Positions 9,347 through 25,844 of a DNA stretch of 27,131 nt are shown in pieces. Below the pieces are notes generated by a model, which saw only the letters and a list, made by a program, of their open reading frames with translations, was not told the origin of the DNA and ran no database searches. A program made the position numbers and the translations under genes. The first letter of the stretch is position 1; every line of letters starts with the position of its first letter. The stretch comes from Pseudomonadota bacterium (GTDB lineage: Bacteria > Bdellovibrionota > FAC87 > UBA2466): positions 1 to 27,131 of the forward strand of contig JAYSWN010000124.1 in assembly GCA_043718025.1 (NCBI GenBank), written 5' to 3'.

Positions 9347-9928
9347 ATGTCCTTTATCAACCATGCTGCTCGCGAAATTAACTGCAAGATCGTCTATTAC
9401 GGCCCTGGCTTGGGCGGAAAGACCACCAACTTGCAGTACATCTACAATCAGACGGCGCCCGACCAGAAGGGGCGGCTGGTCTCTTTAACCGGAGACACGG
9501 AGCGAACTCTGTTCTTCGATTTTCTACCGCTTAACATCGGTGAGATTCGCGGTTTTACTACGCGGTTTCATCTCTACACCGTACCCGGTCAGCATTTTTA
9601 TGATGCGAGCCGTCGCTTAGTGCTCAAGGGCGTAGACGGCGTCGTGTTCGTGGCTGATTCGCAAGTGGAGCGAATGGAAGAAAACCTCGAGAGCTTAAAA
9701 AATTTAGACGCCCATTTAAGAGAGCAGGGGTACGACCTGAATCACATCCCGTTTGTCTTCCAGTACAACAAACGCGACGTGCCCAATCCCATTCCCTCAA
9801 GCGTATTGCGTGAGCAGCTTAATACGTTTAACGCTCCCGAAATTGAGGCGGTGGCGGTGGATGGCCGTGGCGTGTTTGATACCTTAAAAGAGGTTTCAAA
9901 AGGGATTCTTCGTTCTTTGCGATCGTAG
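9347..9928 (+). CDS. mglA: Ras-like small GTPase MglA
   Basis: MSFIN..REINCKIVYYGPGLGGKTTNL, RTLFFDFLP, HLYTVPGQ, GVDGVVFVADSQ, QYNKRD; closely resembles myxobacterial/Bdellovibrio MglA and sits next to recR. Confidence 0.96.
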   Translation: MSFINHAAREINCKIVYYGPGLGGKTTNLQYIYNQTAPDQKGRLVSLTGDTERTLFFDFLPLNIGEIRGFTTRFHLYTVPGQHFYDASRRLVLKGVDGVVFVADSQVERMEENLESLKNLDAHLREQGYDLNHIPFVFQYNKRDVPNPIPSSVLREQLNTFNAPEIEAVAVDGRGVFDTLKEVSKGILRSLRS

Positions 9929-20118: not shown

Positions 20119-20574
20119 TTAGTCGATAAATAAGACGTGGCTAACCGAGCCGATGCGGTCATTTTTTTTTCGGGCTCCGGTGATACGGTTGCCCTCTAGA
20201 ACCAAAACGTGAAAACCGGCGGCCTTCGCTTTGGCGAGAATAAGATCTTTCGCTTTTTTCACCCCGCCTACCGTGAGTTTTACCGGGGTGCTGTAGTCCG
20301 AAGCGCCAAGCGGTAGAATGGTAATCTGGCTCAGGGTAAGAACTTTTCCGCTGATTCTCACCATGGCGCCGAACATGACCTCATCGCCATCGGGCGTCGT
20401 AAAGTAATCAAGGTAGCCGCCGTAGTTTCGAAAGGTGCGTTGAGTTGGCGCGGTTTCATCGGTTAGCGCCGCAATTTTTTGGGCGTCGTGTACGGCGTAG
20501 AGATACAGCGGACAGTCTGCGAGCGCAGACCCCGACAATAAAAAAATCCCCCACCATCTCCCCAAACGCCCCAC
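20119..20574 (-). CDS. Hypothetical secreted protein, possible toxin-like domain
   Basis: Signal-like N-terminus (WWGIFLLSGSALA|DC) and C-terminal AKAAGFHVLVLEGNRITGA; the ORF fills the gap between two clear genes. Confidence 0.6.
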   Translation of the reverse strand: MGRLGRWWGIFLLSGSALADCPLYLYAVHDAQKIAALTDETAPTQRTFRNYGGYLDYFTTPDGDEVMFGAMVRISGKVLTLSQITILPLGASDYSTPVKLTVGGVKKAKDLILAKAKAAGFHVLVLEGNRITGARKKNDRIGSVSHVLFID

Positions 20575-20657
20575 CTAATGATCTGTATCAATGGCCATTC
20601 ACGGTGGAAACCTCAATTGCGACAACGGCCTCAGCCCTGATGACAACCGCCTTCAGA

Positions 20658-21428
20658 TCAAAAAAGGGTGAGAATTTGCGGTTTACCGTCGGTGATGAGC
20701 ACCGTGTGTTCGAATTGCGCCGAGAGCGATTTATCCGAGGTTTTAAAAACGGTAATCGTTGAGCCCGGAATTTCAATCTCCTCAATTGGCGCGGCAGTCT
20801 CATTGATCATTGGTTCTACGGTGATGGTTCCCCATTTTTCTAACCGCACTCCGCGTCCGCGTTTTCCGAACGAGGGCACAAATGGGTCCTCGTGAAAGAG
20901 ACGCCCAATGCCGTGCCCACCAATTTCGCGCACAACGTGGAATCCTTTACGGCTGGTAAACTTTTCGACCGCAAATCCAATATCGCCGGTGAAAGATCCG
21001 GCCTTTGTCTCTTCGATGCCGCGGTTCATGGCGCCAAGGGCACACTCCACGATCTGTTTTGCTCTTTGGCTTGGCTCACCGACAAAGAACATTTTGGAGG
21101 TGTCGCCGTGAAAGCCTTCTACGATTACGGTGACATCGATATTGATAATGTCGCCGTCTTTGAGTTTGGTTTGGTCGGGAACCCCGTGGCAAATCACTTC
21201 GTTAATCGAGGTGCAGATGGCCTTTGGGTAACCCAAATAGTCGGTGCAGGCCGAAATGGCGCCGCGGCTTAGCACAAAATCCAGGGCAATCTGGTCGAGC
21301 TCGTTGGTGGAAATGCCGGCTTTAACAAACTTGCCGGTGTGGGCCAAAGTTTCGGCGGCCAGGCGTCCGGCCTTTTCCATGTAGCGGATTTCGTTGGCGG
21401 TCTTTATGTTCATGGGTGACAAGCTCAT
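20658..21428 (-). CDS. map: Type I methionine aminopeptidase
   Basis: ICTSINEVICHGVP, DGDIINIDVT, GFHGDTS, GGHGIG..FHEDP, TVEPMIN, SAQFEHT. Start at ATG 21428 after AAGGA (alternative 21446). Confidence 0.96.
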   Translation of the reverse strand: MSLSPMNIKTANEIRYMEKAGRLAAETLAHTGKFVKAGISTNELDQIALDFVLSRGAISACTDYLGYPKAICTSINEVICHGVPDQTKLKDGDIINIDVTVIVEGFHGDTSKMFFVGEPSQRAKQIVECALGAMNRGIEETKAGSFTGDIGFAVEKFTSRKGFHVVREIGGHGIGRLFHEDPFVPSFGKRGRGVRLEKWGTITVEPMINETAAPIEEIEIPGSTITVFKTSDKSLSAQFEHTVLITDGKPQILTLF

Positions 21429-21522
21429 AGCATCCTTTTTGCCCATCCTCCAGCGATGGTAACAAGCGGTGCCGAAGTGCCCTTTTGCGGCACCTGCATG
21501 TGCTTGACTTTTTGACCAAAAA

Positions 21523-23646
21523 ATGACACAAGGCGTTATGCCGGCACGTCTAATTTTAGCTCTTACTTTTCTCGCGTTGGTTTCATTCCCGGGGGGGGCC
21601 TCTGCTGTTAACTCCGCATGCACCGAACGATTCATCGAGTTGGCAACCAAGACCCCCAAGCTTACCGAGTTTGGACGCGACCTCACCCTCTTAGCTTCCC
21701 AAGGCAAACTAGACCCGGTCATTGGCCGCGTTAAGGAGCTGGGCGAGGCCTTTGAAATTTTAGGCCTTACGAAAAAAAATAATCCGGTTTTCATTGGCGA
21801 GCCGGGCGTCGGAAAAACGGCGTTGGCCGAAGGGCTGGCCCAACTGATTGCCGATGGCCGAGCCCCGAGCGCTTTCAAAAACCATAGAGTCATTCAACTC
21901 GACTTGACGGCGATGGTCGGTAACACCAAGTTTCGTGGCGAGTTTGAGCAACGCATGAAACTGGTGCTGGCAGAATTGGAAGCCAATCCGGATATCATCA
22001 TCTTCATCGACGAAATCCACACCGTACTTGGCGTTGGCACTACCGACGGGGGCCAAAATGCCGCCAACTTGCTTAAGCCGGCGCTGGCCAGGGGTTTAAA
22101 GTGCATAGGGGCAACTACCCTCGACGAATATAAATTGATCGAAAAAGATGGCGCGCTCGAGCGGCGTTTCCAAAAAGTGGTGCTGCAGCCTCCTAATGAT
22201 GCCGACGTTTTACTAATTTTGGTCGGACTGCGTGAAAAATTTGAGAAACATCATGGCGTGACGATTAGCGATGAGGCCTTAAAAGAGGCCATCGAACTCA
22301 CCAATCGGTATGTGCCCGGCGATCGATTCCAACCCGACAAAGCGATTACGGCTGTAGATCGGGCCTGTTCCCGCGCCCGACTTCTGGCTGACCCCGGGGG
22401 CTACGTGCCAAGCACTCGTGAAGAGCTTGTGGCATTAAAAAAAGAACTCGCGAAAGCGATTGGCGATGAGCAGTTTGAACTTGCAGCATCGCTCAGTGAA
22501 AAAATTAAGGTCATGGAAGGGGCTGCCCCACCCCCACCGCCGGGAACCAAAATAGTGGTTGGCGTGGAAGACATCCGCATCGTGGTTTCCAAAGAAACCG
22601 GCATACCCCTCGAGACTTTGGGTACCGATGAAGCTCAAAAATTGCTCGTCATGGAAACGGCGTTGAAAAAGGTGGTGGTAGGCCAAGACGAAGCCATTTC
22701 CCAAATTTCTAAAGCGGTACGCCTGTCCCGAGCCGGACTGCGTGATCCAAAACGGCCAATCGGAACCTTTGTTTTCGCTGGACCGACGGGAGTGGGTAAG
22801 ACCTTGCTCACGCGAAAATTGGGAGAGTATATGTTTGGCACCGAAGAGGCGGTGATCGAACTTAACATGACCGAATTCGCCGAAAAGCACACCGTCGGCC
22901 GACTGATCGGCGCACCCCCAGGTTACGTCGGATACGAAGACGGAGGCCAGCTCACCGAAAAGGTACGACGTCGTCCTTACTCCGTCTTAGTTTTTGATGA
23001 AATTGAAAAAGCGGCGCCCGAGGTAAGAGCCATTCTGCTTAAGATCATGGAAGATGGGCAAATCACCGATGCTAAAGGCCGCGTGGTCAGTTTCCGAAAT
23101 TGTATTATTATCCTCACTACTAATAAAGGCGCACGGGCCGTGAATTTTGCCAATGAAGCCAACGCGGCGGCCGCCGCCGAGGTGCCGGTGGAAGCCGACG
23201 GCTTCCGTCTTGGAGCCGCTCCCGAACGCACGCCGCCCAGACTTATCACTCAGGCCGAAAAAGAGAAGATGGTCATGGCCGAGCTGGAGCAAGAGTTCAC
23301 TCCCGAGTTTTTGGGCCGCCCCGACGGCATTATCGTATTCAACACGTTAACTAAGGAGCAGATGCACCTGGTGGTCGAGATTGAGGCAAACAAGCTGCGT
23401 AAGTTGCTTGAGGCTAAGGCGCTGACCCTGACCCTTTCGGGAGAGGCCAAAGACTATATTCTTGCGCAGGCCGACGTTTCCAAAACGGGCGGTCGAAATC
23501 TTCGAAAGCAAATTGAAGACAATCTGAGTAGCCCGATCGCGGAGCTCATACTGCGCGGCAGCTTAACCTCAGCAAAAGGGGTTAGCGTTACGGTTGAAGG
23601 CACTGGCGCCGACCGTCATCTGGTTTTTGAGGCCATTGCCCCTTAA
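21523..23646 (+). CDS. ClpC-like AAA+ ATPase (two AAA modules, UVR-type middle coil) with an N-terminal signal-peptide-like leader instead of the Clp-N domain
   Basis: TPKLTEFGRDLT, LDPVIGR, KNNPVFIGEPGVGKT, KFRGEFE, FIDEIH, IGATT, ALERRF, UVR coil AIGDEQFELAASL, VVGQDEA, GPTGVGKT, GAPPGYVGY, FDEIEKA. Start at 21523 or 21538. Confidence 0.93.
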   Translation: MTQGVMPARLILALTFLALVSFPGGASAVNSACTERFIELATKTPKLTEFGRDLTLLASQGKLDPVIGRVKELGEAFEILGLTKKNNPVFIGEPGVGKTALAEGLAQLIADGRAPSAFKNHRVIQLDLTAMVGNTKFRGEFEQRMKLVLAELEANPDIIIFIDEIHTVLGVGTTDGGQNAANLLKPALARGLKCIGATTLDEYKLIEKDGALERRFQKVVLQPPNDADVLLILVGLREKFEKHHGVTISDEALKEAIELTNRYVPGDRFQPDKAITAVDRACSRARLLADPGGYVPSTREELVALKKELAKAIGDEQFELAASLSEKIKVMEGAAPPPPPGTKIVVGVEDIRIVVSKETGIPLETLGTDEAQKLLVMETALKKVVVGQDEAISQISKAVRLSRAGLRDPKRPIGTFVFAGPTGVGKTLLTRKLGEYMFGTEEAVIELNMTEFAEKHTVGRLIGAPPGYVGYEDGGQLTEKVRRRPYSVLVFDEIEKAAPEVRAILLKIMEDGQITDAKGRVVSFRNCIIILTTNKGARAVNFANEANAAAAAEVPVEADGFRLGAAPERTPPRLITQAEKEKMVMAELEQEFTPEFLGRPDGIIVFNTLTKEQMHLVVEIEANKLRKLLEAKALTLTLSGEAKDYILAQADVSKTGGRNLRKQIEDNLSSPIAELILRGSLTSAKGVSVTVEGTGADRHLVFEAIAP

Positions 23647-23665
23647 AGCCGTAAATTTCATGAAG

Positions 23666-23709
23666 CGGGGCGGTTTGGTAAGGTAAAACTTGCCAACCCC
23701 CCCCTTTTT
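23666..23709 (+). terminator. Possible intrinsic terminator after the Clp ATPase gene
   Basis: Imperfect hairpin GGGG..GGTTTGGTAAG-GTAAAA-CTTGCCAACC..CCCC followed by TTTTT. Confidence 0.4.
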
Positions 23710-23736
23710 CGCCAAATTTCACAATTCCCCAAATGC

Positions 23737-23828
23737 GGAGGGGTGGCCGAGTGGCCGAAGGCGGCGGTTTGCTAAATCGTTATACGGGTAACACTGTATC
23801 GGAGGTTCGAATCCTCTCCCCTCCGCCA
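23737..23828 (+). tRNA. tRNA-Ser(GCT)
   Basis: Acceptor GGAGGGG/CCCCTCC, discriminator G plus CCA, anticodon loop TT GCT AA, long variable arm ATACGG..CTGTAT. Confidence 0.97.
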
Positions 23829-23875: not shown

Positions 23876-24071
23876 TTGCGTTCCGCACGGCTTCGCAAAG
23901 CTTATGGAACGGGGACAGATTTACAGCTCGCTGGCTTTGTCGAATCCTCTCCCCTCCGCCAGATTTTTCACAAGGTGAAAAATCTCCTCTACTTACGATT
24001 TTCGATTTTCATTCCGGGGGTTCTTGGGGGTTGGCCGGTGCTTTTTTGCGTTCCGCACGGATGCGCGAAGC
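23876..24071 (+). repeat. Second direct repeat pair downstream of tRNA-Ser
   Basis: TTGCGTTCCGCACGG at 23876-23890 and 24046-24060, extending imperfectly as cttcgcaaagc / atgcgcgaagc. Confidence 0.85.
23940..23961 (+). repeat. 22-bp exact copy of the tRNA-Ser 3' end (att-like direct repeat)
   Basis: TCGAATCCTCTCCCCTCCGCCA is present at 23807-23828 and at 23940-23961. Confidence 0.92.
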
Positions 24072-24096: not shown

Positions 24097-25809
24097 CTAG
24101 CGCCCCCTCTTTAGCTCGAGGCAAAACGCTTTGATATTGCGACCAAAGGCTTTTAAATCGGTGGCGTTGGGATCGATGTCTTCGCAAAACGATCCGTTCA
24201 AAAGGCAGTTAGCTCGCTCCGTAGAAAAGTCAGTGGGAATTTCGCGGCACTTTTCCGCCGCCACCGGCTGCGAGCCATATTGAGAATAGCAGGCCTCTCG
24301 CACTTTGCGATCCGCAATGCCGTGGCAAATCTTAGCGTCTTTCAATTCGTACACGAGATCGTTGTAACAAGATATTTGGTTAGCGTTGGCGTCCGGATTG
24401 TTTGTTTCGGTAAGTTTAATTTTTTCGCACAGCGCGGCGTTCTTCGAGGATCTGGCGGCGTGGGCGTAGCAATGGTCTTGGTCTTTTTCCAACCCCGCAC
24501 AAAAGTCTTTGCCGCCAAACGAAGTTTTTATGGACGCGCACGCCATTTTATCGTCTGACGAGGGGTGGATCATTTTTTCGCATAGTGTGCCTTCTTTTTT
24601 CTCATAGGCCACCCTCCTTAGACACTGATTGTAGGTCACCGCCGCTTCAATAGGCTCGCACTGGGCGGCATTTTTCTCTCGCTGCGCTAAGTTCGCATAA
24701 CATTCGTCGGCCGGACTCGAGCTGTTTGCCACCGCCATTTTTAGAAACTGGCAGCCGGCCAAGCTCAACTTAGCTGCCACCGCATTGATCAGGCAGCGCA
24801 CCGCCGGGGAATGCTCTTCCCTCGCGTCCCGTGGTTCTCTCGCCGCAGTCTTTAAGCATTCGCGTGCCTCCGCCGGAACGCTTTTGGCCGTAAGGGTAGT
24901 GACGATCTCTGCCCGCTGCATGCGCCGGCATCGGAACCCCTGCTTACCGTTTTCACATTCAAACCAGTAGTGAGGAATGGGCAGCTTAGCGGCATTTGCG
25001 CAGGCACAGCCGTAGCCAGCTTTCCAACCGGCGCTACACGCATCCCCTTCAATGCGAATTTTGCCGCACGGGTATCCGCCCGCCAGCTTTTCGCTGCTAA
25101 GCATCTTCACGTCAACCGCCCCTTTCTTGCACTCGACTTCGAAAAGCAGTGCCACTTTATTTTCAAGCGCCGTGAGATCGGCGGGCGATTTTTCTGCGCA
25201 CGCCGGTGCCGGCGGAAAATTCCCCTTCTTGAGGTAAATAAGCTCTTCTTTAGTGGGTGGACAGCTCTTGGCGCCTTTGCCCTGGCATCGACTCTCTCGA
25301 TTTCGTTCGAAGTGCTTCTGAATTGAATTTTGAAAATAAACGCACGCGGCGGGAACGCCGGTGAGACAGGCCAGCTTTGCGCTCGCATAAGTTGCAGAAT
25401 CGTGAAGCCCGTACGGTTCGTTGTAACAGCTGGCACCGCCCGCAAAAAAACAAGCAGGGCGTTCCTTTTCGCGCTGCTCCTTCGGCGCCCCGATACTGTC
25501 TAGAAACGGTGAGCAGTCTTCGTCGTAGCCGGTTTTTCTGCAATTTTCGCGCAGCGCTAACTGCTGGGGGGTGAGGGGAAGTTTCACTTTCGCCGAGCAA
25601 AACCCCAGGCAGCCGGCCTCACAAAACCTCTCCACCGCAGACTGAATTTGGCTCTCTAAGGGGGCGGGCAGCGCCCCTGGCACGGTCATTGACCAGGTCA
25701 TCAAAAAATAGGCCCCTTCGCCCGCCTTGCGGCAACTATCGTAAGGAGTCGCTTGTGAAGAACCGAGCGTCACGAGAAGCAAAACCGCGAGCGTTTTCAA
25801 AAATTTCAT
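24097..25809 (-). CDS. Secreted cysteine-rich repeat protein
   Basis: Signal peptide MKFLKTLAVLLLVTLGSSQA, 38 Cys by manual count, and C-terminal tandem CY..(L/A)A....(N/D)...C..I repeats. Start at 25809 or 25815. Confidence 0.8.
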   Translation of the reverse strand: MKFLKTLAVLLLVTLGSSQATPYDSCRKAGEGAYFLMTWSMTVPGALPAPLESQIQSAVERFCEAGCLGFCSAKVKLPLTPQQLALRENCRKTGYDEDCSPFLDSIGAPKEQREKERPACFFAGGASCYNEPYGLHDSATYASAKLACLTGVPAACVYFQNSIQKHFERNRESRCQGKGAKSCPPTKEELIYLKKGNFPPAPACAEKSPADLTALENKVALLFEVECKKGAVDVKMLSSEKLAGGYPCGKIRIEGDACSAGWKAGYGCACANAAKLPIPHYWFECENGKQGFRCRRMQRAEIVTTLTAKSVPAEARECLKTAAREPRDAREEHSPAVRCLINAVAAKLSLAGCQFLKMAVANSSSPADECYANLAQREKNAAQCEPIEAAVTYNQCLRRVAYEKKEGTLCEKMIHPSSDDKMACASIKTSFGGKDFCAGLEKDQDHCYAHAARSSKNAALCEKIKLTETNNPDANANQISCYNDLVYELKDAKICHGIADRKVREACYSQYGSQPVAAEKCREIPTDFSTERANCLLNGSFCEDIDPNATDLKAFGRNIKAFCLELKRGR

Positions 25810-25844
25810 TGGCATATCTTAACACTCGCCACATCACTCTGGCT

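What the first reader, a model, noticed from the sequence alone, without database searches (positions are those of the whole stretch)
21523..23646. ClpC-type AAA+ unfoldase that appears to carry a Sec signal peptide in place of its N-domain
Seen: the protein starts MPARLILALTFLALVSFPGGASA|VNSACTERFIELA (basic residue, hydrophobic core, A-S-A cleavage site) and joins directly to the AAA1 entry motif TPKLTEFGRDLT. The roughly 150-aa Clp-N domain is absent. Both Walker A/B pairs, both pore loops (KFRG, GYVG), the D1 Arg finger and a UVR-type coil are intact. Known: Clp/Hsp100 ATPases are cytoplasmic and the periplasm is generally considered to lack ATP. Inference: this may be an exported effector that works inside a prey or host compartment containing ATP, for example unfolding prey proteins or engaging prey ClpP. 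Alternatively it is an N-terminally membrane-anchored Clp. Either would be a very unusual Hsp100 architecture.
Basis: partly seen in the sequence, partly recalled or inferred. Interest (0 to 1): 0.88.

Follow-up and report, generated by a model that had tools for sequence, protein, structure and literature searches.

The report
Exported, unbraked ClpC unfolding motor
An uncultured, probably predatory bacterium carries an extra ClpC protein-unfolding motor in which a predicted secretion signal and a short cysteine tag replace the normal control domain and a key braking residue is lost, so it is likely sent into prey cells, where it would use their ATP to destroy their proteins.

Summary
A ClpC-type AAA+ protein has a predicted Sec signal peptide where its N-domain should be; both motors are intact; no misassembly shows; the genome has separate ordinary clpA, clpB, clpX and clpP. 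The start is probably 21538. Two further orthologs (46-52% identical) keep the signal peptide. New here: (1) a Cys-x3-Leu/Phe/Met tag follows the signal; it is enriched genome-wide and also marks ATP-, SAM- and acetyl-CoA-dependent enzymes. (2) The clade is sister to ClpC named as planctomycete, not to the host's own Clp proteins. (3) All four members lack the M-domain brake arginine (S. aureus R443) or the whole M-domain; with N-domain loss this makes S. aureus ClpC adaptor-independent. (4) Other Clp-like proteins with predicted signal peptides occur in 15 of 17 sampled relatives. Best reading (0.5): a deregulated unfoldase delivered into prey cytoplasm, probably coupling to prey ClpP. Export, predation, delivery and ClpP binding are all inferred; the signal was scored with my own heuristic, not SignalP. 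This scan has noted exported Clp ATPases and a cysteine tag before, on other Bdellovibrionota DNA and on another contig of this genome. I found no paper describing them.

The parts
21504..21537 (+). Conserved promoter-like element: TTGACT, 17 nt, CACAAG, 5 nt, then the ATG; predicted leaderless transcript
   Evidence: Same layout before the G002 ortholog despite different neighbours; one match each in G000, G001, G002, none in G003, 0 in reversed controls. The generic sigma-70 scan did not flag it. Function inferred.
21538..23646 (+). Gene for a 702-aa N-domain-less ClpC-type AAA+ protein
   Evidence: (database call is 702 aa)
21538..21606 (+). Predicted Sec/SPase I signal peptide, 23 aa, A-S-A cleavage site
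   Evidence: Sequence; heuristic score and controls; similar leaders in P0276 and P0271, the latter also starting MPAR
21619..21633 (+). Cys-x3-Phe tag (CTERF) just after the predicted cleavage site
   Evidence: CKVQL in P0276, CARNM in P0271; genome-wide enrichment
21652..22400 (+). AAA-1 (D1): Walker A 21796-21819, pore loop KFRG 21928-21939, Walker B 21997-22014, Arg finger LERRF 22156-22170
   Evidence: end coordinate approximate
22408..22518 (+). Short ClpC-type M-domain coil; Phe equivalent to S. aureus F436 kept (22474), Ser in place of R443 (22495-22497), Glu in place of D444
   Evidence: Alignment to 6em8, counts, model helices 291-309 and 313-327
22600..23643 (+). AAA-2 (D2): Walker A 22780-22803, GYVG 22921-22932, Walker B 22987-23001, Arg finger 23308-23319, sensor-2 GGR 23488-23496
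   Evidence: start coordinate approximate
23197..23214 (+). Non-canonical ClpP-docking-loop candidate DGFRLG, inside a lengthened loop
   Evidence: F-x-[LF]-G in all four members at the loop where ordinary ClpC has [LIVM]GF; pLDDT below 50 at 549-565. Binding untested.
20658..21413 (-). Divergent neighbour: type I methionine aminopeptidase; not part of the system
   Evidence: not next to the G002 ortholog
23737..23828 (+). Downstream neighbour tRNA-Ser(GCT); not part of the system as far as shown

Best explanation
This is a ClpC-derived two-ring unfoldase with intact motors that has lost its N-domain and its M-domain brake arginine; it is predicted to be exported by Sec, likely routed by its cysteine tag into the cytoplasm of a prey cell, and there would assemble on prey ATP and unfold prey proteins without an adaptor, probably feeding them to the prey's ClpP. 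Export as an ATP-free, tagged chain would also keep an unregulated protease driver away from the producer's own cytoplasm. Shown: sequence anatomy, conservation, tag enrichment, tree position. Inferred: export, predation, delivery route, constitutive activity, ClpP coupling.
For: Signal peptide plus tag directly before D1 in 3 of 3 members with a complete 5' end; the fourth (G001) is cut by a contig end, and a separate contig end there carries the same promoter and a signal-like start (join unproven). All catalytic motifs kept at 46-53% identity. Housekeeping ClpA, ClpB, ClpX and one ClpP exist separately; no second, exportable ClpP was found in G000-G003 or G007. R443 equivalent is S, H, Q in three members, M-domain deleted in the fourth, against Arg in 152 of 155 ordinary ClpC that matched the motif. 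In S. aureus ClpC, N-domain deletion plus R443A or M-domain deletion gives adaptor-independent degradation, and deregulated mutants kill cells in a ClpP-dependent way (PMC5699869). Lone Cys after predicted signal peptides has Leu at +4 in 48 of 137 cases against 58 of 617 internal lone Cys, p=1.5e-12. Tagged proteins include a GNAT, an SF2 helicase, SAM methyltransferases, two ATP-grasp enzymes, a NUDIX and a pyruvate kinase, which need cytoplasmic cofactors; the kinase, the M3 peptidase and one ATP-grasp have untagged paralogs. Sister to planctomycete-named ClpC, UFBoot 100, on long branches. T2SS, Tad and type IVa pilus clusters present. No TLC nucleotide carrier found in the four genus genomes.
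Against: No experiment; the signal peptide rests on my own heuristic. Predation by this uncultured lineage is unproven, and no Sec-to-prey-cytoplasm route is established (PMC12428579 passages). The F436 equivalent, the strongest brake residue, is kept (Phe or Tyr) in three members, and N-domain loss alone leaves S. aureus ClpC inactive (PMC5699869, PMC12583610). The docking loop is non-canonical, and S. aureus ClpC toxicity in E. coli needed its own ClpP. ClpB-like signal-bearing relatives in the same order lack a docking loop altogether, so export does not imply ClpP use. 56 of 88 tagged or candidate proteins had no Pfam hit, and some are ordinary periplasmic types (penicillin amidase, S41 protease, trypsin-PDZ, a binding protein), so the tag is not shown to mean delivery to cytoplasm. 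The window's own protein is no closer to planctomycete ClpC (48-51%) than to other ClpC (50%); the signal comes from G001 and G002, and the planctomycete set was found with a G002 query.
Confidence: 0.5

Rival explanations
1. It is exported and works on prey or host ATP, but without ClpP: a threading motor that pulls tagged cargo across a prey membrane or extracts prey proteins, as HSP101 does in the Plasmodium PTEX translocon.
For: Non-canonical docking loop. Signal-bearing ClpB-like proteins without a docking loop in G017, G025, G028. HSP101 is a class I Hsp100 that threads cargo across the vacuole membrane (PMC7355975 passages).
Against: Found in one genus only among 38 genomes of the order, whereas a core translocon should be universal. 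No conserved neighbour or pore partner. Two hydrophobic loop residues are kept in all four members.
Confidence: 0.2
2. It is exported but stays in the producer's own periplasm or vesicles, where an unknown ATP supply lets it do protein quality control.
For: A Sec signal by itself only reaches the periplasm. Some tagged proteins are periplasmic types. TLC-like carriers occur in 8 of 38 genomes of the order.
Against: The periplasm is held to lack ATP (established knowledge). No TLC match in G000-G003 (77-94% complete). No exported ClpP found. Loss of the brake is hard to explain for housekeeping.
Confidence: 0.13
3. The leader is an uncleaved membrane anchor and the ATPase faces the producer's cytoplasm, acting on membrane proteins with the host ClpP.
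For: 19-residue hydropathy of the leader is 1.7-2.1 in three members. It removes the ATP problem.
Against: Hydrophobic core of about 13 residues, helix-breaking P/G and an A-x-A type site; basic residues precede the core and acidic or polar residues follow it, which favours an outward-facing mature part (positive-inside rule recalled). The tag is shared with many soluble proteins of the same leader type. A deregulated ClpC in one's own cytoplasm would be toxic by the S. aureus data.
Confidence: 0.12
4. The leader is a chance or non-translated extension, and the protein is a short cytoplasmic ClpC starting downstream.
For: My hexamer gene caller chose a later TTG at 21640; the database also holds a 682-aa call (P0124) of the third ortholog without the leader. 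No Shine-Dalgarno before 21538.
Against: Three leaders of different sequence all score as signal peptides, and two start MPAR; the promoter-like element ends 5 nt before the ATG in three genomes.
Confidence: 0.05

Closest known systems
ClpC of the ClpCP protease (S. aureus ClpC, PDB 6em8; B. subtilis ClpC, 3j3s)
   Same: Best PDB sequence match, E 1e-177 over residues 36-688; best fold matches; D1, short M-domain, D2 and all catalytic motifs.
   Different: No N-domain, so no MecA or phospho-arginine docking; signal peptide and Cys tag instead; R443/D444 not kept; docking loop non-canonical; no ClpC operon context.
Engineered deregulated ClpC (N-domain deletion plus F436A, R443A or M-domain deletion; PMC5699869, PMC12583610)
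   Same: The same two lesions occur naturally: no N-domain, and R443 changed or M-domain deleted.
   Different: F436 equivalent kept in three members; activity not measured; carries an export signal.
Plasmodium HSP101/ClpB2 of PTEX (PMC7355975)
   Same: A class I Hsp100 that works outside the producer's cytoplasm in a parasite-host setting; detected as a sequence match (6e10/6e11).
   Different: Eukaryotic, ClpB-type, keeps its N-domain, has PTEX150/EXP2 partners; none found here. That HSP101 has a signal peptide is recalled, not seen in the passages read.
ClpV/TssH of type VI secretion
   Same: Clp ATPase tied to secretion; profile match below cut-off, 566 bits against 885.
   Different: ClpV is cytoplasmic and has an N-domain (recalled); no T6SS genes in the window.
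ClpL / ClpE / ClpG (Clp proteins with replaced or short N-domains)
   Same: Altered N-terminus on a Clp core; ClpL, ClpE in PDB hits and ClpG/ClpK profiles below cut-off.
   Different: All cytoplasmic with their own substrate-binding N-domains (recalled); none has a signal peptide.

Membership tests
Class I Clp/Hsp100 AAA+ | Two AAA+ modules with Walker A/B, pore loops, Arg fingers, sensors | tested here: met
Class I Clp/Hsp100 AAA+ | ATP-driven hexamer that threads substrate | not testable with these tools
   Needs biochemistry
ClpC | Short coiled-coil M-domain in D1 | tested here: met
   deleted in the G001 member
ClpC | N-terminal Clp repeat domain | tested here: not met
ClpC | M-domain brake residues F436, R443, D444 | tested here: not met
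   F kept; R443 is Ser, D444 is Glu
ClpC | [LIVM]-G-[FL] ClpP-docking loop (consensus recalled; seen in ordinary ClpC) | tested here: inconclusive
ClpC | Descent from ClpC rather than ClpA or ClpB | tested here: met
   Sister to ClpC named Planctomycetes bacterium and Urbifossiella sp., UFBoot 100
ClpA, ClpB, ClpV, ClpG, ClpK equivalogs | NCBIfam curated cut-off | tested here: not met
   687/1232, 600/993, 566/885, 565/1900, 560/1900 bits
Sec/SPase I substrate | Basic n-region, hydrophobic core, A-x-A site | tested here: met
   Sequence and heuristic with controls; SignalP not run
Sec/SPase I substrate | Actual export and cleavage | not testable with these tools
   Needs fusion assay or proteomics
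Lipoprotein (lipobox) | Cys directly after the hydrophobic core in a lipobox | tested here: not met
   Tag Cys lies 5 residues after the predicted cleavage here and about 15-20 polar residues after it in the two orthologs; lipobox consensus recalled
Tat substrate | Twin-arginine motif | tested here: not met
   No RR in any of the three leaders
PTEX-type translocon | Pore and adaptor partners | tested here: inconclusive
   No conserved neighbour; no genome-wide search for a pore was made

The most novel reading that the evidence does not exclude
A Bdellovibrionota-type predator took ClpC from planctomycetes, possibly its prey, stripped both control elements, added a signal peptide and a cysteine address tag, and injects it to turn the prey's own ClpP into an uncontrolled shredder: a protein weapon that copies what ClpC-deregulating antibiotics do. 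The Cys-x3-Leu tag would be the sorting signal of an undescribed Sec-dependent route that delivers dozens of cofactor-dependent enzymes into prey cytoplasm.
Probability: 0.3. Interest if true: 0.93.

Novelty: new variant of a known kind. Interest (0 to 1): 0.8.

Why it matters
Bacterial Clp/Hsp100 ATPases are taken to be strictly cytoplasmic. A conserved, catalytically intact, signal-bearing ClpC must meet ATP somewhere else. How Bdellovibrio-type predators get enzymes into prey cytoplasm is an open question; this gene and its tag give a direct handle: a short motif to mutate and a cargo whose activity reports on arrival in an ATP-containing compartment. The natural loss of both ClpC brakes also offers a ready test of ClpC regulation and of proteolysis as a killing strategy.

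Tried and rejected
Misassembly or frameshift: rejected. Start at 21523: lies inside the conserved promoter spacer; 21538 preferred. Lipoprotein and Tat readings: rejected by sequence. Shared promoter for tagged genes: not found; 1 of 80 N-tagged genes (this one) has the layout. PSSM count of tagged genes (70+17 of 1122) is circular and was not used. The C-terminal form of the tag is weaker (Leu at +4 in 25% of 100 against 16% of 220 non-signal proteins). More orthologs: full-length search returned ordinary ClpC; metagenome scan covered 1 of 64 parts and gave 80 generic Clp loci, 64 with a complete start, none convincing; phylum search of 401 genomes scored only 2 candidates per genome and added none; a two-motif DNA pattern gave 34 loci, 27 with a complete start, whose only signal-bearing hit (L213) is the same protein as the second ortholog; leader-only search found only P0124. 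ESM Atlas gave generic Clp clusters and no usable hit for the leader. No RNA holder listed. Small-share runs X3 and X5 cover only fragments. Complex prediction with ClpP was not available, so binding is open. The paper search on IGF-loop tolerance timed out. The tagged pyruvate kinase has no close ortholog in the other three genus genomes. Only one ankyrin match in the genome, so no sign of a eukaryote-parasite repertoire from that family.

Full report
Observation. It has two AAA+ modules, a lid and a D2-small domain but no Clp_N match, and it scores below the curated cut-off of every named Clp equivalog. A Clp_N profile made from 125 ordinary ClpC detects the genome's ClpA and ClpB but not this protein, and nothing in the 1.7 kb upstream, so the N-domain is absent, not frameshifted away. 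Contigs of two runs span 20600-23776 without a difference; they may be the source data. All catalytic motifs are intact. The AlphaFold model (4-sequence alignment, mean pLDDT 73, pTM 0.46) and its fold matches agree with ClpC; residues 1-38 are low confidence.

Start and signal. The element TTGACT-17 nt-CA(C/T)AA(G/A)-5 nt-ATG precedes the gene in G000 and G002 although their neighbours differ, and occurs once in G001; reversed controls gave 0. It puts the start at 21538 and suggests a leaderless transcript (inference; the generic scan missed it). SignalP was not available. My heuristic scores the leader 4.45 and the orthologs 5.36 and 4.33; 0 of 289 other Clp proteins, 4 of 1445 shadow-frame stretches and 22 of 13641 internal Met starts reach 4.4. 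It was not calibrated on proven positives.

Orthologs. G002 (52-54% identical) and P0271 (46%, a Logan protein of unknown organism) both have signal peptide, short linker, Cys tag, then D1. G001's copy is cut at a contig end; another contig end carries the promoter and a signal-like start, without overlap. Within the order the close form was found in 3 of 38 genomes, all one genus; the fourth genus member is 77% complete. The genome keeps ordinary ClpB, ClpA, ClpX and one ClpP. That the organism is Bdellovibrionota comes from earlier scan notes; my own calls give a record label 'Deltaproteobacteria bacterium' for the second ortholog, a DUF4423 protein and a small GTPase that I recognise as MglA-like in the window (name recalled), and Tad, type IVa pilus and T2SS clusters (cluster names read from gene order and secretin/ATPase hits).

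The tag. Of 831 predicted signal-peptide proteins, 63 have C-x3-[LF] in the first 35 mature residues, against 33.4 +/- 5.4 in 500 shuffles, maximum 50. Without selecting on the motif, lone Cys there have Leu at +4 in 48 of 137 cases, against 58 of 617 internal lone Cys (p=1.5e-12). I scanned 88 proteins (87 of the 99 listed, three of them Clp-like proteins added by hand, plus one more) with Pfam: 56 had no hit; among 32 with hits were a GNAT, an SF2 helicase, two clear and one weak SAM methyltransferase, two ATP-grasp enzymes, a NUDIX, a pyruvate kinase, a weak GT2, an M3 peptidase and four Clp-like ATPases, but also ordinary periplasmic types. The kinase, M3 peptidase and one ATP-grasp have untagged paralogs. 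What the tag does is unknown; an address label is my inference.

Origin. The four members form a clade (UFBoot 100) sister to ClpC proteins of which two are named Planctomycetes bacterium and Urbifossiella sp. (UFBoot 100), with branches of 0.38-0.78 against about 0.1 (29 of the 49 sequences). They share FAGPTG[VL]GK[TS]LL in Walker A2. Limits: that set was found with a G002 query, most other tips are unnamed, and the window's protein alone is equally close to other ClpC.

Lost brakes. Aligned to S. aureus ClpC, F436 is kept, R443 is Ser and D444 is Glu. The R443 position is His in G002 and Gln in P0271, and G001 lacks the M-domain. Among other fetched proteins, 152 of 155 that matched the motif have Arg; 87 did not match the pattern and were not counted, and many of the 155 are close kin (23 of 26 among the 50%-identity representatives). 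Carroni et al. (PMC5699869; section 6 read whole, other passages) show that R443A, D444A, F436A or M-domain deletion give adaptor-independent proteolysis, that adding N-domain deletion unleashes GFP-SsrA degradation, that N-domain deletion alone does not, and that toxicity in E. coli (shown for F436A) needed S. aureus ClpP. PMC12583610 (passages) agrees. Constitutive activity here is therefore a prediction.

Wider pattern. From an AAA_2 search of 38 genomes I hand-picked 20 regions in 17 genomes that were not the ordinary ClpA, ClpB, ClpX or HslU size classes. They hold 22 Clp-like ORFs; 20 score 3.6 or more and 15 score 4.4 or more (best of several starts, so more permissive), and 6 have a C-terminal tag. 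Eight were placed in a tree: they fall apart from the ClpC-derived clade, have long M-domains and no docking loop, and three (G017, G025, G028) keep D1 intact (long branches, so their grouping is uncertain). Signal-bearing Hsp100 thus seems to have arisen more than once in this order.

Mechanism. The protein needs ATP, is predicted to leave the cytoplasm, has no exported ClpP and no TLC carrier found in its genus, and has lost control elements whose loss is harmful at home. The simplest fit is action in another cell's cytoplasm. Lambert et al. (PMC2797640, passages) assume that Bdellovibrio uses Sec to send degradative enzymes toward prey cytoplasm; a 2025 review (PMC12428579, passages) says the systems remain largely unproven. 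I give 0.5 to a ClpP-coupled prey effector, 0.2 to a ClpP-free threading motor like PTEX HSP101 (PMC7355975, passages), 0.13 to work in its own periplasm, 0.12 to an inward-facing anchor, 0.05 to an artefact.

Literature and novelty. Nine searches of an open-access library found no description of a bacterial signal-peptide Clp ATPase or of this tag; the word CxxxL occurred in none of the 25 papers listed. Also read as passages only: PMC12622784, PMC12546842, PMC11495043, PMC3239186, bioRxiv 10.1101/2023.11.21.568195, and PMC6561590 (44% of proteins with signal sequences, including M3 and M41 peptidases, in an intracellular parasite). No supplements were read; SignalP tables there could hold such proteins. 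Subscription papers were not searched. This scan's notes already report exported Clp ATPases in other Bdellovibrionota, in Elusimicrobiota (part of that report later fell) and on another contig of this genome, and a similar Cys tag elsewhere; these are unchecked and not support. What this locus adds is an intact, lightly diverged ClpC with a traceable donor group and a testable loss of both brakes.

Noticed in passing
G000:C36:1451-6118 (L061): 1555-aa protein with predicted signal peptide, Clp-like AAA modules, an M41 (FtsH-type) peptidase domain and a C-terminal CGEIL tag; Clp-like proteins of 1212-1553 aa with signal peptides also in G001, G005, G007, G017, G019 (their peptidase domains not checked).
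   Followed up: partly
G000:C232:13151-20306 (L054): Trypsin-Clp fusion followed by an 867-aa signal-bearing Clp-like ATPase; similar 850-920-aa proteins in G001, G002, G004, G012, G025, G044.
   Followed up: partly
G000:C35:17539-19884 (L041): 781-aa signal-bearing, strongly diverged double AAA protein ending in a CGGQL tag, next to another C-tagged protein.
   Followed up: partly
L242 (G025:C14), L245 (G028:C22), L246 (G017:C107): ClpB-like proteins with predicted signal peptide, remnant Clp_N domain and intact D1; two end in a C-x3-L tag. A second exported Hsp100 lineage.
   Followed up: partly
G000:C225:12104-13720 (L087): Pyruvate kinase homolog with predicted signal peptide and CTSWL tag, beside an untagged kinase elsewhere in the genome.
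   Followed up: partly
G000:C216:751-8892 (L036): Three co-directional tagged genes, the last a 1197-aa SF2 helicase with signal peptide.
   Followed up: no
window 20119-20574 (-) and 24097-25815 (-): Flanking orphan genes with signal-like leaders and a Cys soon after the cleavage site (DCPLYL, SCRKAG); no Pfam or NCBIfam hit.
   Followed up: no
window 23914-23961: Partial repeat of the tRNA-Ser 3' end (TCGAATCCTCTCCCCTCCGCCA) about 130 nt downstream, resembling an integration-site duplication.
   Followed up: no
window 9347-9928 (+): Small GTPase that looks MglA-like (name recalled), directly after dnaX-recR.
   Followed up: no
L096 (G384:C1): 997-aa open frame of a ClpG/ClpK-like protein with a zinc-type N-terminus in one genome of the phylum.
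   Followed up: no
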